A stretch of DNA of 64,000 nucleotides, from sequence record NC_048170.1, one strand, 5' to 3'. Shown piece by piece: positions 29,552 through 44,898 of this stretch. Each line of letters begins with the position of its first letter. Positions within the stretch are counted from its first letter, which is position 1. The stretch is from Escherichia phage vB_EcoM_Goslar. The notes below the pieces were generated by a model that was given only the letters and a program-made list of their open reading frames with translations, was not told the origin of the DNA and ran no database searches. The translations under genes and the position numbers were made by a program.

Positions 29552-31138
29552 TTAGAAGTTGCCTTTGGTAGTTACCGCATCCACCAGGTTAAACAAATCA
29601 ACACTCAGCTTATACACCTCCTGCTGGCTACGGTTGAGCAGCGGGCTGTATGCGGATGGGTTGATGTTCGGCATGGTGTACGGAATAGGTGCAGAGCCGT
29701 CAACGCTGATCTTGAACTGGCTGTCCAGGAACAGGTTAATCGCGCCGCTCACCATAACCGCATTCGGGTTGTTACCCAACATGGAGGGTAGGATATTGGT
29801 AATCATGTCAGAACGCATTTGTTCAGCAGCACGGTTACAATCGTATCCTTTAATGAACGGTACAGCGTCGGTAACCGCAACCGCCCACTGACCAGGCATG
29901 ATACCGAGTTCTGGGTGACCATGGTTGTCAGCAATGAAACGGAACGACTCCAACATGCGATACGTCATCGCAGCAGGCATCATCGCAGCAAGCGATGAGC
30001 AATACAGCGTTGGATAATCGATCACGTCCCAGCTCTGGCTGTCGGTCGGCATCCAACCAAACTCGGTGGTTGCTGATGTACCACGACGAGCTTCCACATA
30101 CGGGAATAACGTTAAGACGTCACGGATATGTTCACCGAACATCCGTTTCATGTCAGCCCAACTCAGGCTGCCGCTGAAAGCGAATCCTTCATCACGCATA
30201 ATCGCACCGAATACCGGATGTGCAACCAGCGGTTCTTCACGAACAGCTTGAGCGGCTTCTACGTAAATATCCTCGTTCTCTGCGCTACCTGGATGAGACC
30301 CGCTTTCGTACGTCTGACGAATAGCCCCAACATTATCGAAGGCTTTTCTCAGATAGATGGTTGGGATGTTCGTATCGGCACTAGCTGGTTTGATTTTCTC
30401 TGTTGCGAAACACATTGCTGCTTCCACACCACGGAAAACCGGTTCCGGTTGCGGTGGGTAGGATGTACGATGAACCACGTCAGCGTAGGCGGGATCGAAC
30501 TGCTGCATTACGTTCTGCATGGCTGGGTCCATGAACTGGTTATCAAAACCACCATTGCCCACCCAACGTGCTGTCGATGCATAAGTCAGCGTATCCTGAA
30601 CACGAGTACTGAACTGAACATCGCGATTAACAGGGTCGTACGCACCGGTCAAAAGGTTCGTTGCGTCCATCGGGGTCGCGCGAACGATTTGCTTACCGAA
30701 CATGTCCGTTGTGGTTGTTTCGGTTACCTGGATTACGTTCGTGAAGAAGAACACCAGTTCATTCGGCAGATCGATAGCACGCGTTGTAAACGCATCGAGG
30801 CTTACAGAATGGTCGGTGTATCCAGAAATGTAATGGACACGCTTGGTTCCTGGTGCAAGGGCCAAGGATTCTTCTACAGCCATCATGAAATGGAAACGAC
30901 GTGTGCCCCAACCATTCGCAATCTCCGAAACCCCCTCAGGTTCTGCAGACTGCTGCAACAAACCGGTTGCAAGCTTATTGATTGCTGATGGTGTTGTTGC
31001 CGTACCGAACCGCGTCGTGTTAATAAAGTCTTCGATGCTACGCATGCTATCTGCGTGGAATCGTAGTGGACGACGTTGTACGTTGTTGTACGGTGCGGTT
31101 TCAACCATCAGTATTTCACGAACATTCATCGGGATCAT
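29552..31138 (-). CDS. hypothetical protein
   Basis: 528-aa ORF. Confidence 0.5.
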   Translation of the reverse strand: MIPMNVREILMVETAPYNNVQRRPLRFHADSMRSIEDFINTTRFGTATTPSAINKLATGLLQQSAEPEGVSEIANGWGTRRFHFMMAVEESLALAPGTKRVHYISGYTDHSVSLDAFTTRAIDLPNELVFFFTNVIQVTETTTTDMFGKQIVRATPMDATNLLTGAYDPVNRDVQFSTRVQDTLTYASTARWVGNGGFDNQFMDPAMQNVMQQFDPAYADVVHRTSYPPQPEPVFRGVEAAMCFATEKIKPASADTNIPTIYLRKAFDNVGAIRQTYESGSHPGSAENEDIYVEAAQAVREEPLVAHPVFGAIMRDEGFAFSGSLSWADMKRMFGEHIRDVLTLFPYVEARRGTSATTEFGWMPTDSQSWDVIDYPTLYCSSLAAMMPAAMTYRMLESFRFIADNHGHPELGIMPGQWAVAVTDAVPFIKGYDCNRAAEQMRSDMITNILPSMLGNNPNAVMVSGAINLFLDSQFKISVDGSAPIPYTMPNINPSAYSPLLNRSQQEVYKLSVDLFNLVDAVTTKGNF

Positions 31139-31139
31139 T

Positions 31140-32726
31140 TTATTTTTTTCCTCTTAAATTTACTACGTGTTCATTTAATCGAACAACTAATTGCACAAGC
31201 TGCTGACGGATATCTGCTGGACAAAGCATCAATCCTTTACGGTCAGCTGGGACTTTCTCAAGGATTTCCGGGCCTGCTGCTGAAACATCCCAGTCCCATT
31301 CACAAAACGCATCGGCCACCATGTTAATACCGACAACCGGTAAAGTTGTACGTTCATCTTCATACATGGCGTGTGGATACAATTTATTGACAGTAATGAT
31401 CTCCTGTGGTTTTAATTGGTGGATAATCTGATAAACATCGTCGCGTTTAACCTGGATACCTACGGTCAGCGCTGCCAGTTGAGGAAAACCCCAATGGTCT
31501 AATAAGCAAGCTGCAATCGCTAACGCTTTTGCTTGATGCACGGCTTCAATCGGTGCCAGACTTCTCGCCGGAAGATGGCTATCAAGCAACCATTGTGCCA
31601 GTGCTCGGCATCCGCGGTTGATTGGTTTTAACTCAACGGTGTCATCATGTTTAGCGTACGTGTATCCGTCGTAACGTTTTGCGATACGCGCATACATGTC
31701 TTCAACTTTACCGTAAGGTGCTGTTTCGTCGACGTCGTGTAACACACGTTCCATCTGGGTAAGATACGCGATGTCAAGAATGAGTACACGCGGTGAACGT
31801 TTATCTTTCACCATCAACGCATCAATCACGCCTTGACTGTCTTCATCTTGCGCGTTCCCTCGTGGGGTTTTCTCACGAATCGGTCCGCTGAAACGTCGTT
31901 CCGTACAAAGGTTATTCACGTAGCTAAAGATCAGTGTTACCAGATGCGTACAACTCACCAACACCCCATCTTTAACGACAGGCTGTACGGCTTGGTCCAA
32001 ATCGCGTACGGCGAGACGGCGGACGATGGCTTGTGAACGCAACCAGCCGGGCACTTTCTCCGTCGACATGTAATCCACGGTCATCGACAGCGTGATCTTT
32101 TTATCACCCGTCTGTGCGCGGATATAGTCTTCCAGTCGGTCGTAAGCGGCGATATCATGAATGCATGTTTTATACATCAACGACATAGCCACTTCTTCTT
32201 TACGGACTGTCCCGTACGTTTTCCCTGCGTCAATCAGAAACTCCGCCCAAATCGGCACCATCAGACGGACGTAGATCGCTAACGCCGTTAACTCAACGTA
32301 ATCATTTCGTAAATAGGTTTTCTCAGGTATGTCATCCTCACCTAATGTTGTTTTCATGTCCGGTGGTAATTTTACCCAACCTGGGGTATTACACAACGCC
32401 AGAATCTCTTCATACACAACCGGTTTGTAAATTTCACCAACAGCGCGACTCAACTCCTCCATTTGTTGTTGTGGAGCAATGTAGTTATCCATCGCTTCAC
32501 GTGCTTTAACGAACCCTTCGAAGATGTCGTCAATTCGACGTGGGTTCTTTTGTTCTATCCAGGCGAGATACTTGTTAATCTCCCGCATCTGATTGCTAGC
32601 CATATCCCCATCAATCTTGATGTAACCCTGGCCTGAAAATTCCACAGTACGTCCATCACGATGTTTGATGAGATAGTGATCCAGCTTTTCTTTTCCTTGC
32701 GTCGTAATGACGGGCACTATGTGCAT
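31140..32726 (-). CDS. hypothetical protein
   Basis: Start set at ATG 32726 (MHIVPV...) preceded by AGAGG; the longer ORF to 32861 has an Arg-rich extension. Confidence 0.5.
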   Translation of the reverse strand: MHIVPVITTQGKEKLDHYLIKHRDGRTVEFSGQGYIKIDGDMASNQMREINKYLAWIEQKNPRRIDDIFEGFVKAREAMDNYIAPQQQMEELSRAVGEIYKPVVYEEILALCNTPGWVKLPPDMKTTLGEDDIPEKTYLRNDYVELTALAIYVRLMVPIWAEFLIDAGKTYGTVRKEEVAMSLMYKTCIHDIAAYDRLEDYIRAQTGDKKITLSMTVDYMSTEKVPGWLRSQAIVRRLAVRDLDQAVQPVVKDGVLVSCTHLVTLIFSYVNNLCTERRFSGPIREKTPRGNAQDEDSQGVIDALMVKDKRSPRVLILDIAYLTQMERVLHDVDETAPYGKVEDMYARIAKRYDGYTYAKHDDTVELKPINRGCRALAQWLLDSHLPARSLAPIEAVHQAKALAIAACLLDHWGFPQLAALTVGIQVKRDDVYQIIHQLKPQEIITVNKLYPHAMYEDERTTLPVVGINMVADAFCEWDWDVSAAGPEILEKVPADRKGLMLCPADIRQQLVQLVVRLNEHVVNLRGKK

Positions 32727-32930
32727 AACAACCTCTTTTCGCGGTTCCCTGTTAAAACGTCTTCTGTGACGTCTACCACAAAGGTAATATAAGCGTGAAT
32801 AATTTTGGATTCCGGCTGAGTTATCGCTCAGCATGCAAGGCATCCCGCCGAAGCGAGACACCTTGCACTAACGGAAAATATTCGCGTTACCTTCTGAATC
32901 GAAGACTCAGAATGCGATGCTAAAGCATTA

Positions 32931-33719
32931 TTAGAACGCTAAGCCATCAAAGGCTACGGACGGATCATCATCGTCGTTTGCGCTTGGCGCATCCCAACGG
33001 GTATCAGGGGCCGCTGAAGCCGAACTTGATGCGTTAGAGTTACCGTTGTACTGGCCGTTACCAGCATTACGGTTACCGCCGCCGTTGTTATTGTTACGGT
33101 TATAGCTATTGTTGCCATTACTTACGCTACGGCTTTCACCGTCGAAATTGGTTGCGAGGATGCTCGGCAACACCGCACGATGAATACGTACAAATTCCAA
33201 CGCACAAAGCGGAGAAACAACCCCGATCTGTAAAGGTTGCCCAGACTCATCAACCAGAGCGTGGAAGCGCGGTGGCTTGAATACGAATTGGATGTTCGGT
33301 TTTTGGTACGCCGTTACAGCGATATATACCGAACCATCATCGTTCTTACCAACCCATGTTGTACTTTCGGTAATCTGTTTCTTCTTACCTGGGTTATTGC
33401 GATCGTCGATAACCTTTTCGTTCTTCATCGCAAAACGTTGGCCTGGTTTACCCTTAGCAACCTGCTCGAGGATCGCAAGCAGGTTATAGAACGCGTATGA
33501 GCTCATGCGTGCCCAAATGCTTTCAGCGCGACCCTGCTGGTCTTTACGACCGGTGTAAACCGTGATACGCGGTTGATTCTTAGCAACGCTAATTTTCAAT
33601 GAGGGGATTGAATTACCGCCCTCAACCTTTTCGTCCGCCCACAGTTTCCAGTTGTTGTCGTCATACGCTGTAGGAATAATGTTTCCTTGTGGTTTACTGC
33701 CCGAATTCCAATTGCTCAT
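32931..33719 (-). CDS. putative single-stranded DNA-binding protein
   Basis: Asn/Gly-rich disordered C-terminal tail ending in an acidic tip (...SANDDDDPSVAFDGLAF), reminiscent of SSB tails; N-terminal domain not matched by eye. Confidence 0.4.
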   Translation of the reverse strand: MSNWNSGSKPQGNIIPTAYDDNNWKLWADEKVEGGNSIPSLKISVAKNQPRITVYTGRKDQQGRAESIWARMSSYAFYNLLAILEQVAKGKPGQRFAMKNEKVIDDRNNPGKKKQITESTTWVGKNDDGSVYIAVTAYQKPNIQFVFKPPRFHALVDESGQPLQIGVVSPLCALEFVRIHRAVLPSILATNFDGESRSVSNGNNSYNRNNNNGGGNRNAGNGQYNGNSNASSSASAAPDTRWDAPSANDDDDPSVAFDGLAF

Positions 33720-33791
33720 TTTCAGCCTCGTTACGTAGTTGAATCAATTTCTGGTTCAGATGATAGTTAATATTAGTTAAAAATTACAGCC

Positions 33792-34625
33792 TCAGCGGAA
33801 CATGTCCAACAGAAAACGTTTTGCAAAGGGGTCGCGTAACTGGTTGACACCGAAGCGTGTACGGTCTTCCGTTGTTAATGGATTCCACTGACTCTGTTTC
33901 GCAAGATCTAACAGCATCCTTTTTATTTTCACCGGCCCACTGTTAAACTGTACGGCTTGGTCACCGAACGTTCCCAAGGTCATCTTTGTAAATGGAAGAT
34001 TCGCAACCTCTGGACGATCCCCACCAGTAAGTTTAGTCGACCACTGATGTTTTCGTTTCAAGGTTCCGGTATGGCTCTCTACCAAAATAAGTTCACCAAA
34101 ACCGGTTCTTGCCAACAAGTCAGAAACATAGTGCGTGGTGATATACGATGTCTTGGTTATCGCGGGTAATTTACAATCCATCGATTCGATATTAGGGAGT
34201 CGATCTACAGACGCCATCAACCCACGATAAAGTGTAGCGAGTCCTTTTTGTTTTTCGGTGTGTGGCTCCTTATGTATAGCGTGCGGATAAACACGCTTTA
34301 TTGACGCATAGGTTGGCGCATATATCCGCAAGCGAATGTGGGGAACGAGTTCATTCACCAACTGTCTTAGCTGCAGTAACTCGTTTTGAAAATCCCCTGT
34401 TATCATCGATAACGGTAATTTATGTTGTTCAACGTCTTCAAAGCTTTCAACGAAATTGCGTGCTAAAGTACGCAGGTTGAACAACCAATCCATCGGTGTT
34501 TCTGGCTGTTGCTGTACTGCTGATAATGTTGCTGACGTCCCTACCGATAAAGGATAATCACCTAACGTGCGGGCGTACATATCGCTCATACCCCACAACT
34601 CCTTCTTATCATGGCAACGTATCAA
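33792..34625 (-). CDS. hypothetical protein
   Basis: 277-aa ORF overlapping the end of the Mre11-like gene. Confidence 0.45.
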   Translation of the reverse strand: MIRCHDKKELWGMSDMYARTLGDYPLSVGTSATLSAVQQQPETPMDWLFNLRTLARNFVESFEDVEQHKLPLSMITGDFQNELLQLRQLVNELVPHIRLRIYAPTYASIKRVYPHAIHKEPHTEKQKGLATLYRGLMASVDRLPNIESMDCKLPAITKTSYITTHYVSDLLARTGFGELILVESHTGTLKRKHQWSTKLTGGDRPEVANLPFTKMTLGTFGDQAVQFNSGPVKIKRMLLDLAKQSQWNPLTTEDRTRFGVNQLRDPFAKRFLLDMFR

Positions 34626-35751
34626 GCCAAGCAGAAACCTTTAAGGCATCAACGTTCGGGTATTTATTACGAATGCGTTCGACCAACAAACGCTTAACGT
34701 TGTCCTTTGTCAAGTCTCCACCTTTCTCGATAACGTTATTGACAAAACTGTTCTTTAATAGCGACTGGTTGTTCTTGGCATCCGTTTTAATTGACCAGAC
34801 AAAACCTGGATACAAAGAAGGAATAGAACGAAACGTTTTCGCCGCATCGTCTTCCTTATCGCAGCGTATTCGAATATGATCGCCCTTCTTCAGTGGAGCC
34901 AATTCCCGTTCCAACACACGGACAATTTCATCTCCAACAAGACCATGCAGTTTTATCGTCTTATAGACATCTGCTTTCTTGTTCTCAACAAATTCCCACT
35001 GGTCGTTAAACGATTCTGTTAACGTATAACGGAGATACCCCTTTGGACCTTCTTCGCCGTGCGCCAAGCGACCAAACGAACCGCCAACCATGATACGTCC
35101 TTTCTGGGATTGTAAGTGGATGTGCCCGCTCACAATCCATCCCTGGGTCTTCTCTACCATTGCGTTATACGCATCACTGCTATGAACACATGTTGCTTTT
35201 AACGCTTCTGGTGGAAGCTGATATTCGAACGCGCCATGCATCAGAATAAAGTCTGGCGATCCCTTCTCATCAATAAGTCGGTTCACGGCCGACAACGTCA
35301 CATCCGGATCGTGGCTGTAGTTATCTGGAAGATAAAGCACTTTTAAACCAAAGTCTTCATCAACCATGCAGAGGTCATCGTAATAACGAACTTTCGCTCC
35401 TATCTCCATGACCTCGTTCTGTTCAACGAACCACTGACTTTGCTTCTGGTCGTGTAAATTGGTACCCTCAAGAAAGATCAACGTAATATCGTGTTTTCTC
35501 GCATACCGTAACAACCAGGTACCCCAGGCACGAACAGCAACCACATCACTCGTCACAAATGTCGTAATACGATCGAAGACATCGCCACTGAACGTAATCA
35601 CATCAAGCAGCGCAGGATCTTCTTTTGTAATGTAATAACGCAGTTGGCTAATCAGGTTTACTGTCGGTGTTTGACGATGGATAAAGTGAATATCCGACAA
35701 ATTGATTCCACGTAATACCCCAGGCGTTTTATTTCGACTGAAGTCTCGCAT
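34609..35751 (-). CDS. Mre11/SbcD-like metallophosphoesterase nuclease
   Basis: INLSDIHF, FSGDVFD, GTNLHD, MHGAFE, SGHIH phosphoesterase motifs. Confidence 0.6.
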   Translation of the reverse strand: MRDFSRNKTPGVLRGINLSDIHFIHRQTPTVNLISQLRYYITKEDPALLDVITFSGDVFDRITTFVTSDVVAVRAWGTWLLRYARKHDITLIFLEGTNLHDQKQSQWFVEQNEVMEIGAKVRYYDDLCMVDEDFGLKVLYLPDNYSHDPDVTLSAVNRLIDEKGSPDFILMHGAFEYQLPPEALKATCVHSSDAYNAMVEKTQGWIVSGHIHLQSQKGRIMVGGSFGRLAHGEEGPKGYLRYTLTESFNDQWEFVENKKADVYKTIKLHGLVGDEIVRVLERELAPLKKGDHIRIRCDKEDDAAKTFRSIPSLYPGFVWSIKTDAKNNQSLLKNSFVNNVIEKGGDLTKDNVKRLLVERIRNKYPNVDALKVSAWLDTLP

Positions 35752-36533
35752 CAGAATTCCTCTAGGTTGCTGCTGCTAATAGTCCCCGTCGTAGACGGCA
35801 TGTTTCTACTGCTCGCTGACGCTGTTGTTGAAGAAGTTCTGGCTAGATTCAATCCATTTAATAACCCACGCTCTTTTACCGTACGACGTGAACCATCACG
35901 AACGTCGTAAAGGGGTACGTTATAATGGTCAAAAATCCGAAGCCATTGCACGTAATCAGCAACAACATGGTCTTTGCTTTCATTCGGGGCAAAGCGATCA
36001 AGCTGATGGTCGACGTAAGCTTTAGCGCTTTCAGGATTGAAGTTATACTGTCGACGTGCTTTGTCCACCATCGCGAGGAAACATGTGTTGGGGTCACGAT
36101 TGATGTATGAACGTGTCCGGATAAAGATAGCCGGTACCGTAAACAGAACCTTGTTGTTATTCCCATCAGCAACGATGTTAACCGCGCGATGTGGTTGGCC
36201 TGCTATCTTGCACCAATCGTGAACAATGGTACTATTACTCAGCATCTCCGCGTATTCAGGATCCTGTGAAAACATTCCTGCGAACGGATACAAGAAATGT
36301 TTAACAAACAGCGACTCAGGCAGGATGTTGGGACGCGTCATCTCTTGTAAACCTTTTCGTAGAAGCTCGCTGTTGTCTACCAGCTCCTGCCACATGTCTG
36401 GTCGTGTTTTCGGGATGGACGGATCCTGAGCGCGGCGAATGCGCTCTTCCTCATTTACAACCACTACCCCAGCCGGATACCCCAATAAATCCGTTCCTTC
36501 GCTAACGTTGCTGTTAGTTTGGCGCGCCTTCAT
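35751..36533 (-). CDS. hypothetical protein
   Basis: 260-aa ORF; stop/start overlap with the nuclease gene. Confidence 0.45.
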   Translation of the reverse strand: MKARQTNSNVSEGTDLLGYPAGVVVVNEEERIRRAQDPSIPKTRPDMWQELVDNSELLRKGLQEMTRPNILPESLFVKHFLYPFAGMFSQDPEYAEMLSNSTIVHDWCKIAGQPHRAVNIVADGNNNKVLFTVPAIFIRTRSYINRDPNTCFLAMVDKARRQYNFNPESAKAYVDHQLDRFAPNESKDHVVADYVQWLRIFDHYNVPLYDVRDGSRRTVKERGLLNGLNLARTSSTTASASSRNMPSTTGTISSSNLEEF

Positions 36534-40214: not shown

Positions 40215-41654
40215 CTTACGTGCACCGACGTTTATTAACTCATGGTTATCCACTGAAATACGGCGTTAGGGAAATAATCCTTCTTGCCGCGTTTTGAGAT
40301 TTGCAATGCCATATTACTCGGAGACAATCTGTAATGCCATGCTGCTTCATCGATAGAACTAAACTTCTTTGTTTCACCGTTATCAAAGATGATTTTCAAC
40401 GCCAGTTTAGGTAAATCGTCTTCCGTTTCTACTAATTCGAAAGAATCGATATTCTCTGCCAGCGTCAACGGATCAACTGGTAATATCAGCCAACCAGCAC
40501 GCTGCAATCCTCCACGTAGACTAATTTGTTTATTCAACGCAGGGGTAGCCATGCCAACTAACTTAGCAGCCAGCTTGCGGTCTTTAATATAAAGACGATA
40601 ATCTCCGGTATTATTAATAGCATACACACCAAAGTTATTGAACGATACCTTTCCAGCATCGGAACTAGTAAAGCCTACAAAGTCGTGGCTGTCGGTAGCC
40701 ACGTCGTATTTAAATGCTAATGGCTTGTTTCGACTGCCGCTAAGATACTTCTTGGCTGTAGATACCGATATGTTGAGATATCGTCCAATAGCATTCAAAC
40801 TTTCTAGTTCGATGATTTCTCCTGTCAATATGTCCTTTAACCGAACATTACCCATCGGTATTGGTGGTTTACCGACATAACCCAATTCACGATATGCGTG
40901 TTTCAAGTTATCTGAATCAGTAGCCCATTCCAAATTTTCTAGTCTGTTATCCCAACGCACCCCATTAAGATGATTAGGGACACGACGGATTATACCTGAC
41001 GTCGGATCTGGGTTAAATGTTTCAAGGACAATCTGATGATGGTATTTCACTTTATTGTTCCTAGTGAAAGCGCGATAGTTGTTTTTGCCCGACTTGGGTG
41101 GTTCAGTACGAAACAACACTGTCAGACTAGACACATCTACTATCGTACCGTTCTTATTAACAACGATACCATCAAAACCATTAACAGGACGATAATCAGA
41201 CAAACAATCTTCAGAAATTGCCTGTCCAACTAAAGGTTCACTCAATTTGACCTCCTTTATAAAAGAAGTCGGTGCACGTAATTATCGACTATATCTTCAT
41301 CCTCGTTGCGAGGAGTCTCCCGTTTTGGTCTGTGTTTAACAGAGCCTACTCTACTCGACATCGCGTCTTTCGATAGTCTGTGAGCACACATCTTAACGAA
41401 CATTCGTGGATTCCTAAACAGGTGAACGTTCTTGTTGAGATGCTTCGCTGCGGATTATTCCCGTCCTACCTCTTTTACCCTACCCAGTTCATTACGCTGG
41501 CCCTCATCTGTGTCACCACGATGAGTTGGTGTGTAGTCCGATTACAGAAACTTCCCGTCAATTAGAGAGTTTTAACTACGTTCCTGTTACCAGAAACCCG
41601 ACTCCGACGATATCAATAAATCAACGTAAGTTATTGATTTAATTGAAGAAACTG
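40215..41654 (-). mobile_element. putative group I intron 1 carrying an HNH homing endonuclease gene
   Basis: Minus-sense P AATTGACGGGAAG (41563-41551), Q AATCCGCAGC (41456-41447), R CTCACAGACTATCG (41384-41371), S AAGATATAGTCGA (41297-41285). Candidate internal guide GAGTCGG (41604-41598) pairs with the exon 1 end CCGACTT with G-U at the splice site. 14-bp inverted repeat (41268-41281 and 40216-40229) encloses the ORF; terminal G at 40215. Confidence 0.6.
40235..41245 (-). CDS. HNH homing endonuclease (intron-encoded)
   Basis: KYHHQIV...VPNHLNGVRWDNRLENLEWATDSDNLKH matches the HNH motif; C-terminal helix-turn-helix-like regions; TTG start 5 nt after AAAGGAGGT. Confidence 0.75.
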   Translation of the reverse strand: MSEPLVGQAISEDCLSDYRPVNGFDGIVVNKNGTIVDVSSLTVLFRTEPPKSGKNNYRAFTRNNKVKYHHQIVLETFNPDPTSGIIRRVPNHLNGVRWDNRLENLEWATDSDNLKHAYRELGYVGKPPIPMGNVRLKDILTGEIIELESLNAIGRYLNISVSTAKKYLSGSRNKPLAFKYDVATDSHDFVGFTSSDAGKVSFNNFGVYAINNTGDYRLYIKDRKLAAKLVGMATPALNKQISLRGGLQRAGWLILPVDPLTLAENIDSFELVETEDDLPKLALKIIFDNGETKKFSSIDEAAWHYRLSPSNMALQISKRGKKDYFPNAVFQWITMS

Positions 41655-42910
41655 AAGTCGGCATTATAACCTTTGAGGATCATCACGCTTAACCCGATGG
41701 TGTTATCCTGCGGATCGCGTTTAACCTTGGTGATTTCAAGACATTGGTTACTGCTTCGGTCAAGTGATGGGTTTCGAACAAAGCCACACACAATCCCATC
41801 GAACGGTGTATCAGCAATAAGCTCATCGTGCAGCTCGCTCATCATCGGATGATAATTACGGACATGTTCCGCAACGAACGCACGTGCTGCTCTCGGTGAA
41901 TAACCACGATGGAATAACTTGGATTGGATATGTTCTTTATTGGTTAAAGTAAATGGTGCGTATGGGAAATGCAGATGATAATAACGATGGTTCGCTGTTA
42001 TCGAACTGATTACAGTACGCGTGGTGAATGGATGTAATGTACCTAATATGTTTTTACGTGTAATACCTTTCTTCTTACCGATGAACTCATCGAAAATCGC
42101 CGCGTGGTATTGCAGCAGCTTCAATTGCACTTTCGCCATCCAGTTTTCTTTCTTTCTGGCGCTCAAAGGTGTTGTTGGATGATAGATACTATTCAACGTA
42201 CCGATAGCATCGATCGCACCTTCCATTTTGCTATCTGCATAACGACCGGTCGGCGTATTTTCGATAACGAACATCATGGCCGCAGGAAAGCTGATATACT
42301 GACTGAAGAACTTATCACGATGGATTCGGATGAATTCTCGTAGCGTGTCAACTTTCTCCGTGTTCTTCGGTCCACGTAACGTAGGTCCTTTATACAAGAT
42401 CTCCATGATGCGATCGAAGTTCTGTATAAAGCTATTTACGCCACGACGTATCCCGAATACATCGAATTGCTGCTCCAGATAGTTCTTGAGTTCGATGGGT
42501 CGTTTTACATTTGGACGGTAACTGGCATCAATGAGCCACGTCATCGTTTCAAAGCTTTTGATATTCAACTCGCTTGCCAGCACGAGATGGACCAACGGGT
42601 TAATGAACGCATCGATTCCTTCAGGAACACGCGCCCAAACCGTCGAACGAATCTCTTGTTCTGCTGGGTAGGTTACAACCGTTTTACAGTTTGGACACAC
42701 CGTGCCGAGTAGCTCACCACGATTGTAGAAACCACAACCACATTGTGGTGTGATATCCAACGTATCGCTGGAATAAACACGGGTGATAAAACTGTTTAAT
42801 TTCTTCTTCTCTTCGACGACTTTTGTATCGTAATCGTTCAACAAAATCGGCGTAAAAGGAAGTTCTGCGAGCTGTCTATCGAAACTCACGATATCGAGCA
42901 TGATGGCCAT
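41655..42910 (-). CDS. RNA polymerase beta'-like N-terminal subunit, exon 1
   Basis: Zinc ribbon CGCGFYN...CPNC; GITRKNILGTLHPFTTRTVI parallels [20 protein letters not shown]; ends ...LKGYNADF. The unspliced ORF then reads SFFN-stop. Confidence 0.7.
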
Positions 42911-43002: not shown

Positions 43003-44898
43003 TTAGAACAGGTTGAATGCCCCACCCATGTTGTTAACGCCAACATTCGGACGATCGCTACGTGCGTAGATGTTACCGGAGATGTTACCCAGACCACGAG
43101 CACGTGCTGCCATGTTACCACGAACAGCGGTACCTGCCAGATGCTGGATGTTCTCAGGACGGATGGTGAAGCCAGCATCAGCAGCGGCTTCGATCAGCGC
43201 CTGCAGTGCTAACGGATCGAAGTCGTAACGCATTGCCCAGCCGGTTTGTTCCCAGCTACCAGACAGAACACGATCGATGATTTCGTGACGAGCGACAACA
43301 CGCTGAGACATCGTCATATCGGTACGGTCGAAGCTGTCTTCCCAAGCTTCTACGGTATCCGGGTTAGTGATGTTCATCATGTACAGATCGTCCATATCAC
43401 GAATATCGTGACGGTGACCATCCTGGTGGTTGTAGTGACCCAGCGGGATACGGTTACCGGTAGCGTAGACCAGCGGTAAGCCGTATTGATATTTCTTGCT
43501 GAAGCAACCCAGGGTAACATCATCGAACGCACGGTAAAGCGCTTTGTAACCTTCGGAGATTTCACGGACTTCACCTTCAACTTTGCCCGTATAGATCTTC
43601 TCAGCCGCCGGGATCATACGCAGCAGCCAGCTGTACTCACCTTCTTCCGGTACGTCGATAGAAATCAGCAGAGACGGATACAGTACCTGTTGCAGGAACT
43701 TGTAAATCTGCTCGTTGGTTTGAGTGGACAGATCCAGCGGTGCGGTAACTTCCGGATCCAGTACCATCGCCAGAGCACCCGGGTTATGCGGACCAATACC
43801 ACGGGCAGCGTTGCTGATTAAAGACTGTGCCCACGCCATACCGCTGTTCAGCGTAGCGATGGTGCCAATCAGCCCCAACACGAAAGTGTTCGGCGTGAAC
43901 GCATCCAGCTCCAGCGGGTAAGCGCTGGTCATCACGTAACGCGGCTGGTATTGTACAGTCGGCGGTACCGGATAACCGTTAACCAGAACAGGGCCTTGGT
44001 TGAAGGTCGGGTTCTGCGGGCTGTAGGTCAGGTCGATGTAACCGGTGGTGGCGACCAGACGCTGTTGACTATCGTAATCGCTCATCGCTTGACGGATACG
44101 GTTAGAGATAGTTACAGTGATGTCAGAACGCACAGGGTTACCAACAATATCGCTGTCCTGCATACCGCTGGTGTTATACTGAACGCTGCTGATTGGCTGA
44201 TCGCTTGCCATCATGCCCAGGTTGAACTGCGGCAGACCCAGTTTATCACCGAGACGGATTTCGATCGCGGTTTGGATTGCGTTATCTGCAGCAGACAGCA
44301 GGGTGGTTGCCAGATGCGCAGATTCAGCGGTGATTTCATTGGTCACCACAGCCAGACCAGCGATACGAGCAGTACCATTAGACTTACCGCCAATAGCTGC
44401 ATACATTGCCGCCATGACTTCGTTGATGAACGTACCGTTCAGGTTATCAACCCAGGTACGCGGTACCAGAATGTTACCATGCGGACCTTGTTCTTCACGA
44501 CGCGGCAGCGGAGCCAAACCGGCAACCAGCGGAAGCACATAACCAAAGAAGTGGTTATGGTCACCAACTTTTGCACCACTCATAACGACCAGGGTCGGAT
44601 ACGGTACGCTGTACTGGTTCGGGTCAACCGCAACAAAGATGAAGTCGTCTTTGAACCGGGTATCTTCCAGATATTTCTCCATCAGACGACGGAGATTCAG
44701 TACCTGCTCGGAGCCAGTATTACGGCTAATACGACGGCTCAGTGTACGGTTGATCGTACGCATCGTATGAGTTACTTTAGGCTGGCCAGCAAAATCTGCA
44801 GCGGTTTCCAGCGCCTCATCAGCACGTTGTGCGGTGCGGGTTTCAGCTGCACGAATTTCTACATTATCGTTACCGTTATTACGTACGTCTAAGCCCAT
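43003..44898 (-). CDS. abundant structural protein candidate: chimallin-like nuclear-shell protein (alternative: capsid or sheath protein)
   Basis: 631-aa ORF with codon usage that looks strongly biased; promoter-like motif 67 nt upstream; sits immediately upstream of the beta'-N gene, the arrangement I recall for the phiKZ shell-protein and RNAP genes. No diagnostic motif seen by eye. Confidence 0.45.
   Translation of the reverse strand: MGLDVRNNGNDNVEIRAAETRTAQRADEALETAADFAGQPKVTHTMRTINRTLSRRISRNTGSEQVLNLRRLMEKYLEDTRFKDDFIFVAVDPNQYSVPYPTLVVMSGAKVGDHNHFFGYVLPLVAGLAPLPRREEQGPHGNILVPRTWVDNLNGTFINEVMAAMYAAIGGKSNGTARIAGLAVVTNEITAESAHLATTLLSAADNAIQTAIEIRLGDKLGLPQFNLGMMASDQPISSVQYNTSGMQDSDIVGNPVRSDITVTISNRIRQAMSDYDSQQRLVATTGYIDLTYSPQNPTFNQGPVLVNGYPVPPTVQYQPRYVMTSAYPLELDAFTPNTFVLGLIGTIATLNSGMAWAQSLISNAARGIGPHNPGALAMVLDPEVTAPLDLSTQTNEQIYKFLQQVLYPSLLISIDVPEEGEYSWLLRMIPAAEKIYTGKVEGEVREISEGYKALYRAFDDVTLGCFSKKYQYGLPLVYATGNRIPLGHYNHQDGHRHDIRDMDDLYMMNITNPDTVEAWEDSFDRTDMTMSQRVVARHEIIDRVLSGSWEQTGWAMRYDFDPLALQALIEAAADAGFTIRPENIQHLAGTAVRGNMAARARGLGNISGNIYARSDRPNVGVNNMGGAFNLF

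What the first reader, a model, noticed from the sequence alone, without database searches (positions are those of the whole stretch)
32931..33719. SSB-like protein recognised only by its tail
The long Asn/Gly-rich low-complexity C-terminal region ending in an acidic tip (DDDDPSVAFDGLAF) resembles the partner-recruiting tail of SSBs, while the N-terminal domain is not recognisable by eye. It would be a diverged SSB if confirmed.
Basis: inference. Interest (0 to 1): 0.4.

Follow-up and report, generated by a model that had tools for sequence, protein, structure and literature searches.

The report
ChmC/Imp6 ortholog with SSB-like tail

The parts
32931..33719 (-). chmC/imp6 ortholog CDS, 262 aa plus stop
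   Evidence: ORF list. phrog_3284 at E=1.1e-35; phiKZ gp67 and PhiPA3 gp61 fall in the same PHROG at E~6e-80. BLASTP to phiKZ gp67 gives E=2.6e-18 and to PhiPA3 gp61 5.8e-14, in a small database. tblastn finds 67 phage records, all nucleus-forming-type jumbo phages.
33726..33729 (-). Shine-Dalgarno GAGG, 6 nt upstream of the ATG
   Evidence: Read directly from the sequence: minus strand ...aacGAGGctgaaaATG.
33663..33719 (-). N-terminal residues 1-19, low-confidence and probably disordered
   Evidence: pLDDT below 50 for residues 1-17.
33150..33662 (-). Whirly/PUR-like nucleic-acid-binding core, residues ~20-190 (beta-beta-beta-alpha then beta-beta-beta-beta-alpha)
33033..33119 (-). Asn/Gly-rich segment of the disordered linker, residues 201-229
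   Evidence: Composition and predicted disorder. It is the equivalent of the N/G-rich region that drives condensate formation in PhiPA3 ChmC (PMC11077065).
32976..33032 (-). Ser/Ala-rich spacer, residues 230-248
   Evidence: Sequence and predicted disorder.
32934..32975 (-). Acidic-hydrophobic C-terminal tip DDDDPSVAFDGLAF, residues 249-262. It is a degenerate variant of the family's SSB-Ct-like D-D-D-[ILFM]-P-[FWM] end.
   Evidence: Alignment A1. Scores 5.0 bits on the family tip PSSM, the 6th percentile of the family; 4% of its own shuffles score as high. Family statistics.
32727..32930 (-). Strongly structured 204-nt intergenic RNA downstream of chmC, including a 16-bp (4 G-U) UUCG hairpin at 32833-32868
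   Evidence: RNA fold of the 209-nt stretch 32727-32935, which adds the stop codon and two preceding bases: MFE -74.8 kcal/mol, z=-5.6, 0 of 200 shuffles fold as well. No Rfam family and no U-tract terminator on the minus strand. Its function was not established.
29552..31138 (-). PicA/Imp1 homolog. Imp1 is the published direct binding partner of Imp6/ChmC.
   Evidence: BLASTP to PhiPA3 gp63 at 5.9e-24 and phiKZ gp69 at 3.6e-15; phrog_3141. The Imp1-Imp6 complex is described in bioRxiv 10.1101/2024.03.27.586873.
31140..32726 (-). phiKZ gp68-like nvRNAP subunit, immediately downstream
   Evidence: BLASTP to phiKZ gp68 at 1.9e-32 and PhiPA3 gp62 at 1.1e-32. The start near 32726 is taken from the 528-aa gene call in the 99%-identical contig.
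33792..34625 (-). phiKZ gp66-like gene, immediately upstream
   Evidence: BLASTP to PhiPA3 gp60 at 5.7e-32; phrog_3229.
43003..44898 (-). Chimallin (ChmA) nuclear shell protein, which marks the phage as a chimallivirus
   Evidence: phrog_4795 'nuclear shell protein', E=4.3e-52.

Best explanation
The ORF encodes the ChmC/Imp6 protein of an undescribed, deeply divergent nucleus-forming jumbo phage (chimallivirus). Shown here: it is homologous to and syntenic with PhiPA3 gp61 and phiKZ gp67; it has a confident Whirly/PUR-type core (residues ~20-190); and it has a 72-residue disordered tail made of an N/G-rich stretch, an S/A spacer and an acidic-hydrophobic tip. Inferred from the characterised orthologs: the core forms a homotetramer whose basic face binds single-stranded nucleic acid (ssRNA better than ssDNA), and in infected cells it binds phage mRNAs. 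The N/G-rich linker gives weak multivalent self-association, so the protein and RNA condense at or near the nuclear shell. The protein associates with PicA/Imp1, encoded two genes downstream. This assembly supports mRNA export from, and protein import into, the phage nucleus. My own inference from family statistics: the last ~6 residues are a position-specific short linear motif of the SSB-Ct type. It probably acts as it does in SSB, either docking into a partner's pocket or folding back onto the protein's own basic nucleic-acid-binding face. That would make it more than a generic 'electronegative cluster'. In this phage's clade the motif has drifted to AF(D/Q)GL(A/P)(F/L), with the acidic run moved upstream.
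For: Homology: phrog_3284 for the query (1.1e-35) and for the two characterised ChmCs; tblastn to phiKZ PHIKZ067, PhiPA3 061 and 201phi2-1 gp123; BLASTP. Synteny: eleven consecutive genes are collinear with phiKZ gp55-gp71 and PhiPA3 gp54-gp64, and ChmA, nvRNAP subunits and a DNA polymerase lie in the window. Fold. Tail architecture as described for ChmC: and PMC11077065. Function of orthologs: tetramer, Kd values, eCLIP, the knockdown phenotype and the failure of deltaC to rescue titre (PMC11077065); Imp1 binding. Tip as a specific motif: P at -2 in 129 of 157 representatives, D at -4 in 115, D at -5 in 107, I/L/F/M at -3 in 137, F/W/M/L at -1 in 145. Information content is 1.9-3.1 bits at positions -6 to -1 and about 1 bit upstream. 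The hydrophobic-Pro-hydrophobic C-terminal ending (h-P-h) is retained in 15 of 17 members that lack an N/G-rich linker.
Against: Identity to the characterised orthologs is only 28-33% over the core. No biochemistry exists for this protein. Only 3 of the 6 basic residues mutated in PhiPA3 ChmC (R35, R44, R63) align with basic residues here; K30, K48 and K59 do not, although other Lys/Arg lie nearby. The tetramer was not modelled. The window's tip fits the family motif poorly (5.0 bits against a family mean of 18.1), so what holds for the canonical tip may not transfer. The 150 representatives were ranked with a full-length profile that included tail columns, which may mildly enrich SSB-like tails.
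Confidence: 0.85

Rival explanations
1. Functional SSB analogue. ChmC is also, or mainly, the chimallivirus's own single-stranded-DNA-binding protein, built on a Whirly scaffold instead of an OB fold. It coats ssDNA in the phage nucleus and uses the SSB-Ct-like tip to recruit host SSB-interacting proteins or phage replication and recombination enzymes. This overlaps with the best explanation and is not exclusive of it.
For: The architecture parallels SSB point for point: tetramer, Gly/Asn-rich disordered linker, and an acidic tip. The family consensus FDDDIPF equals the E. coli SSB C-terminus, and the EcSSB tip scores 23.7 bits on the ChmC tip PSSM, above the family mean. PhiPA3 ChmC binds ssDNA at 184 nM. 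Goslar ChmC forms puncta inside the nucleus, and knockdown nuclei contain less DNA. tblastn with E. coli SSB finds no homolog in this 64-kb window (best E=0.59). Whirly proteins in plants are ssDNA binders (PMC11077065). SSB-Ct recruits at least 17 partners (PMC10018359, PMC5872125).
Against: RNA is bound about 3-fold tighter than ssDNA. eCLIP shows binding to phage mRNA, and the knockdown phenotype is nuclear retention of mRNA (PMC11077065). PhiPA3 ChmC sits on the shell, not throughout the nucleus. Only 64 kb of a ~241-kb genome was examined, so a canonical SSB may be encoded elsewhere. This window's tip is degenerate.
Confidence: 0.25
2. One reading: a highly diverged member of the OB-fold SSB family whose N-terminal domain has drifted beyond recognition.
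For: Only the tail composition and the acidic tip with a terminal Phe.
Confidence: 0.02
3. The tail is only a compositionally biased condensate-forming region plus a non-specific 'electronegative cluster', as interpreted in the ChmC paper. On this view the resemblance to SSB-Ct is coincidental and has no specific docking role.
For: Deleting the whole tail abolishes condensates and shell localisation in PhiPA3 and fails to rescue Goslar titre, which the condensate model explains. The window's own tip departs from the motif. Acidic C-termini are common in nucleic-acid-binding proteins.
Against: A non-specific acidic cluster does not predict a near-invariant Pro at -2 (129 of 157), a hydrophobic residue at -3, an aromatic or Met as the very last residue, or information concentrated in exactly six terminal positions. 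It also does not predict retention of the tip in lineages without the N/G linker.
Confidence: 0.2

Closest known systems
ChmC / Imp6 of Chimalliviridae (PhiPA3 gp61, phiKZ gp67, Goslar gp176, 201phi2-1 gp123)
   Same: Same PHROG family. Same position in the conserved gp65-gp66-gp67-gp68-gp69 block next to nvRNAP subunits and PicA/Imp1, in a phage that encodes ChmA. Same predicted Whirly-type core, similar length (262 aa against 246-252), and the same tail plan of an N/G-rich stretch followed by an acidic end.
   Different: Only 28-33% identical over the core, and the tail does not align beyond composition. Three of the six experimentally mutated basic residues are not conserved in position. 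The tip is extended and rearranged (DDDDPSVAFDGLAF, against FDEDMPSF and FDDEIPNF in the studied orthologs and ...DDDIPF in most of the family). The host phage is at most 36% identical in DNA polymerase to any deposited phage.
Bacterial SSB (E. coli Ssb; OB fold, Pfam PF00436)
   Same: A homotetrameric binder of single-stranded nucleic acid with a Gly/Asn/Gln-rich disordered linker that promotes phase separation, and an acidic C-terminal tip ending in a hydrophobic-Pro-Phe motif. The family consensus of the last 7 residues is identical to that of EcSSB.
   Different: The globular domain is unrelated (Whirly/PUR, not OB). The preferred ligand of the characterised ortholog is RNA. The documented role is mRNA and protein traffic at the phage nucleus, not replication. 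This particular protein's tip lacks the penultimate Pro and the contiguous D-D-D directly before the hydrophobic end.
Whirly / PUR / MRP1-MRP2 single-stranded nucleic-acid-binding proteins (PBF-2 p24, StWhy2, T. brucei MRP1/2, Pur-alpha)
   Different: There is no detectable sequence similarity (9-11% identity in the structural alignments) and no Pfam Whirly hit. Each repeat has three strands where the canonical fold has four (noted for ChmC in PMC11077065). Those families lack the SSB-like linker and tip.

Membership tests
ChmC/Imp6 (Chimalliviridae) | Significant sequence homology to the experimentally characterised members (PhiPA3 gp61, phiKZ gp67) | tested here: met
   The query and both characterised proteins fall in phrog_3284 (1.1e-35; 6e-80 and 6e-81). 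tblastn E=5e-11 to PHIKZ067 in a 2.3-Gb database. BLASTP 2.6e-18 and 5.8e-14.
ChmC/Imp6 (Chimalliviridae) | Encoded in the conserved gene block with nvRNAP subunits and PicA/Imp1, in a phage that encodes chimallin (ChmA) | tested here: met
   The gene order is collinear with phiKZ gp55-gp71 and PhiPA3 gp54-gp64. ChmA phrog_4795 at 4.3e-52, plus nvRNAP beta subunits.
ChmC/Imp6 (Chimalliviridae) | Whirly/PUR-type fold made of a tandem beta-beta-beta-alpha repeat | tested here: met
ChmC/Imp6 (Chimalliviridae) | Disordered C-terminal 50-70 residues: an N/G-rich stretch of ~40 aa followed by an S/D/E-rich end of ~15 aa | tested here: met
   pLDDT below 50 for residues 191-262. N+G is 47% in residues 196-240, and there are 5 acidic residues in the last 14.
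ChmC/Imp6 (Chimalliviridae) | Basic nucleic-acid-binding surface (PhiPA3 K30/K48/K59 and R35/R44/R63) | tested here: inconclusive
   The pairwise alignment keeps R35->K, R44->R and R63->R. K30, K48 and K59 are not basic at the aligned positions, but K47, R58, K59 and R64 lie nearby and the core net charge is +8.
ChmC/Imp6 (Chimalliviridae) | Homotetramer; binds ssRNA better than ssDNA; forms condensates; binds Imp1 | not testable with these tools
   Known only for the orthologs (PMC11077065; bioRxiv 10.1101/2024.03.27.586873). No multimer modelling or biochemistry was available here.
Bacterial/phage OB-fold SSB (PF00436, phrog_44) | OB-fold DNA-binding domain detectable by sequence or by structure | tested here: not met
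Bacterial/phage OB-fold SSB (PF00436, phrog_44) | C-terminal SSB-Ct tip (D-D-D-I/L-P-F) after a disordered Gly-rich linker | tested here: inconclusive
   The family consensus is identical to EcSSB. This protein keeps the linker, an acidic run, Leu at -3 and a terminal Phe, but lacks Pro at -2 and the contiguous acidic residues; it scores 5.0 bits against a family mean of 18.1.
Whirly family (Pfam Whirly) | Sequence match to the Whirly profile | tested here: not met

The most novel reading that the evidence does not exclude
Chimalliviruses have rebuilt the whole bacterial SSB architecture on an unrelated Whirly scaffold: tetramer, phase-separating disordered linker, and the DDDIPF partner-docking tip. 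On this reading ChmC's tip is a true SSB-Ct mimic. It would plug ChmC-coated RNA or ssDNA at the phage nucleus into the host's SSB interactome, or into phage enzymes and Imp1 that carry SSB-Ct-type pockets. ChmC would then double as the phage's missing SSB, and the tip would have a function separable from condensate formation. The papers held here on ChmC/Imp6 do not mention the resemblance.
Probability: 0.3. Interest if true: 0.7.

Novelty: new member of a known kind. Interest (0 to 1): 0.4.

Why it matters
For this window, the result turns an unannotated ORF ('hypothetical protein', no Pfam or NCBIfam family) into a named, experimentally characterised component of the phage nucleus. It also shows that the window comes from a chimallivirus lineage absent from the deposited phage collection but present in a Salmonella assembly. 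The published tail deletions removed linker and tip together, so the tip's role is untested. Because SSB-Ct is a well-understood docking motif with known pockets, mutants and peptide assays, the question of how ChmC/Imp6 is anchored, and what it recruits at the nuclear shell, becomes directly testable.

Tried and rejected
1. Pfam, NCBIfam, and PDB searches with the sequence and the full-length profile gave no informative hit. The family has no curated model and no solved structure.

2. Megablast of 32000-36000 against phages found no match, so the phage is not a close relative of any deposited genome.

3. A tails-only HMM (alignment A2) against the PDB did not find SSB. With filters off, the same HMM scores its own family's tails at only E=0.5 (phiKZ) and E=92 (PhiPA3), and does not report EcSSB at all. 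The method fails its positive control, because the profile is short and compositionally biased and is penalised by HMMER's bias correction. I therefore relied on an ungapped PSSM, per-position counts and regular expressions instead.

4. BLASTP of EcSSB against long family members with composition correction and SEG switched off aligned the linker plus tip at ~40% identity. I treat this as descriptive only, not as evidence of common descent.

5. The Goslar record could not be fetched under accession MK327938, and no supplementary text is held for the ChmC paper, so the Goslar gp176 tail was not examined.

6. Rfam and the promoter/terminator scan gave nothing for the structured downstream intergenic region or for a sigma-70 promoter. 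That is expected, since these phages use their own RNA polymerases.

7. The overlapping plus-strand ORFs (for example 33237-33500) were considered and dismissed. They lie inside a conserved minus-strand gene and have no support.

Full report
OBSERVATION. The coordinates 32931-33719 delimit a real ORF on the minus strand. It is 262 codons plus a stop, starts with ATG, and has a GAGG ribosome-binding site 6 nt upstream. Residues 196-240 are 47% Asn+Gly, against 13.7% in residues 1-190. The tail (191-262) carries net charge -5 and the core +8. At sequence level the N-terminal part is unrecognisable. Pfam gave nothing at E<=10, NCBIfam gave nothing meaningful, and the PDB gave nothing by sequence or by profile.

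WHAT IT IS. The protein matches phrog_3284 (unknown function) at E=1.1e-35. tblastn against 50,697 phage records found 67 hits, all below 60% identity. Nearly all are phiKZ-like jumbo phages, including PHIKZ067, PhiPA3 061 and 201phi2-1 gp123. phiKZ gp67 and PhiPA3 gp61 fall in the same PHROG at E~6e-80.

The neighbourhood is collinear with phiKZ and PhiPA3 over about 17 kb. On the window's minus strand the order is:
- nvRNAP beta subunit, gp55-like (41639-42910);
- gp59/Imp3-like;
- gp62-like and gp64-like;
- SbcD-like, gp65 (34609-35751);
- gp66-like (33792-34625);
- the target, gp67-like;
- gp68-like nvRNAP subunit (31140-~32726);
- gp69 PicA/Imp1-like (29552-31138);
- gp70-like;
- gp71-73-like.

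The chimallin shell protein ChmA lies at 43003-44898 (phrog_4795, 4.3e-52), and a DNA polymerase and helicases are nearby.

PhiPA3 gp61, phiKZ gp67 and Goslar gp176 are the published ChmC (Enustun et al. 2024, PMC11077065), also named Imp6 (bioRxiv 10.1101/2024.03.27.586873; review PMC13282480). The ORF is therefore a ChmC/Imp6 ortholog.

HOW IT MOST LIKELY WORKS. These points come from the orthologs (literature; inference for this protein):
- ChmC is a homotetramer.
- It binds ssRNA (Kd 58 nM) more tightly than ssDNA (184 nM) through a basic face.
- It localises to the nuclear shell (PhiPA3), or to puncta on and inside the nucleus (Goslar).
- Knockdown retains phage mRNAs in the nucleus, lowers phage protein levels, gives smaller nuclei with less DNA, and drops plating efficiency to ~4%.
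- A tail-less mutant supports nucleus growth but does not rescue titre.
- phiKZ gp67/Imp6 forms a stable complex with Imp1/PicA, with an apparent 2:1 stoichiometry.

In the window the Imp1 homolog lies two genes downstream. Of the six basic residues mutated in PhiPA3 ChmC, three align with basic residues here (R35->K, R44->R, R63->R). Three do not, although other Lys/Arg lie nearby. I rate nucleic-acid binding as likely but untested.

An exhaustive profile search found 1,239 clusters (50% identity) at E<=1e-3. In the 157 sequences retrieved, the C-terminus is strikingly position-specific:
- position -1 is F 94, W 22, M 19, L 10;
- position -2 is P in 129;
- position -3 is I 72, L 37, F 21, M 7;
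- position -4 is D in 115;
- position -5 is D in 107;
- position -6 is D in 84;
- position -7 has F (34) as its commonest residue.

The per-position consensus of the last seven residues, F-D-D-D-I-P-F, is identical to the end of E. coli SSB (...PPMDFDDDIPF). I obtained that sequence by translating ssb from NC_000913.3. Many members end literally in DFDDDIPF, and one ends in PPMDFDDSIPF.

On an ungapped PSSM built only from ChmC tips, the EcSSB tip scores 23.7 bits. The family mean is 18.1 bits (SD 6.4), and the C-termini of 136 window ORFs average -21.9 bits. Information content is 1.9-3.1 bits at positions -6 to -1 and about 1 bit upstream. The tip survives in 15 of 17 members whose linker is not N/G-rich. 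Cultured phages on several hosts carry it: Erwinia pEa_SNUABM_54 PPAFDTDIPF, Xanthomonas LucasX GDDDIPM, Burkholderia FLC9 SEDLPF, Bacillus AgentSmith FDTDVPM and Ralstonia RSL2 DFDDISF.

The two best-studied orthologs have a one-residue insertion (phiKZ FDEDMPSF, PhiPA3 FDDEIPNF), which may be why the resemblance was not remarked. The ChmC paper calls the region an S/D/E 'electronegative cluster' and never mentions SSB. A library search for ChmC plus SSB returned nothing relevant, and neither did the reviews. I cannot exclude that it is noted in papers outside the held library.

SSB-Ct (DDDIPF) is a documented docking motif for at least 17 partner proteins. SSB is a homotetramer whose disordered linker promotes phase separation (PMC5872125, PMC10018359, PMC4872115, bioRxiv 10.1101/2022.01.17.476650). 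The family thus parallels SSB in everything except the globular fold.

CAVEATS ON THE TAIL. The window's own tip is a degenerate version, scoring 5.0 bits at the 6th percentile. It keeps an acidic run, Leu at -3 and a terminal Phe, but has Ala in place of Pro at -2 and Gly in place of Asp at -4. Its only close relatives end in DDDDDDAAPAFQGLPL. The 150 representatives were ranked with a profile that included tail columns, so SSB-like tails may be mildly enriched. A tails-only HMM search of the PDB did not return SSB, but that method also fails on the family's own tails and is uninformative. Whether the tails share ancestry with ssb or converged was not resolved. The ~40% identity alignments obtained without composition correction are not evidence either way.

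COMPARISON AND NOVELTY. The protein is a member of the ChmC/Imp6 family. Homology, synteny, fold and tail plan were all tested and met; oligomeric state and binding were not testable. It is not a member of the OB-fold SSB family, because both fold and sequence tests failed. It resembles Whirly proteins in fold only. It works like a single-stranded-nucleic-acid binder with an SSB-style tail. I classify it as a new, divergent member of a known kind.

The host genome is itself unusual. Its DNA polymerase is at most 36% identical to any deposited phage, and megablast finds nothing. A 99%-identical chmC sits on a 241,126-bp contig in a Salmonella enterica assembly and in one SRA run.

VERDICT. The 'SSB' label is wrong as to family and fold. 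It is right that the tail is SSB-like and that the protein belongs to a family that binds single-stranded nucleic acids. Interest is 0.4. The gene itself is ordinary for a chimallivirus, but the family-wide SSB-Ct tip is a concrete, cheaply testable lead.

Noticed in passing
window 32727-32930 (minus strand); hairpins at 32833-32868 and 32892-32912: The 204-nt intergenic region between chmC and the gp68-like gene folds far better than chance. The folded 209-nt stretch 32727-32935 gives MFE -74.8 kcal/mol, z=-5.6, with 0 of 200 shuffles as stable. It contains a 16-bp stem (4 G-U pairs) capped by a UUCG tetraloop, plus several shorter hairpins. There is no U-tract and no Rfam family. It could be a 3' stabiliser or terminator for a very highly expressed gene, or a signal for the phage RNA polymerase.
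   Followed up: partly
whole window; L004 (ABWJZQ010000008.1, GCA_044983125.1) and L005 (SRR33321300): The window comes from a chimallivirus with no close relative among 50,697 deposited phage genomes (no megablast match; DNA polymerase at most 36% identical). A 99%-identical chmC and the same gene neighbourhood lie on a 241-kb contig inside a Salmonella enterica serovar Schwarzengrund assembly. That contig is probably a complete phage genome carried in, or contaminating, an isolate.
   Followed up: partly
P0047 (466 aa), P0105 (420 aa); L006:140-1552 (Erwinia phage pEa_SNUABM_54, 470 aa): Some family members are tandem duplications: two ChmC Whirly modules in one chain followed by a single linker and an SSB-like tip (PPAFDTDIPF, PPMDFDDSIPF). 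This would give a covalent pseudo-dimer with half as many tails per tetramer-equivalent.
   Followed up: partly
window 31140-32861 (minus strand): The mechanical ORF for the gp68-like nvRNAP subunit starts at a GTG at 32861 (573 aa). However, homology to phiKZ gp68 begins near residue 65, and the gene call in the 99%-identical contig is 528 aa. The true start is therefore probably the Met near 32726, which is what creates the ~205-nt intergenic gap.
   Followed up: partly
L001:6959-7699 (phiKZ gp67) and L002:6935-7693 (PhiPA3 gp61): The two experimentally studied ChmC proteins carry a one-residue insertion between the Pro and the terminal Phe (MPSF, IPNF). They score low (3.1 and 8.3 bits) on the ungapped family tip PSSM, so they are atypical representatives of the family's C-terminus.
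   Followed up: yes
window 34609-34625: The SbcD-like ORF and the mechanical gp66-like ORF overlap by 17 nt. The gene call in the near-identical contig starts gp66-like at an internal Met (265 aa), which removes the overlap.
   Followed up: no
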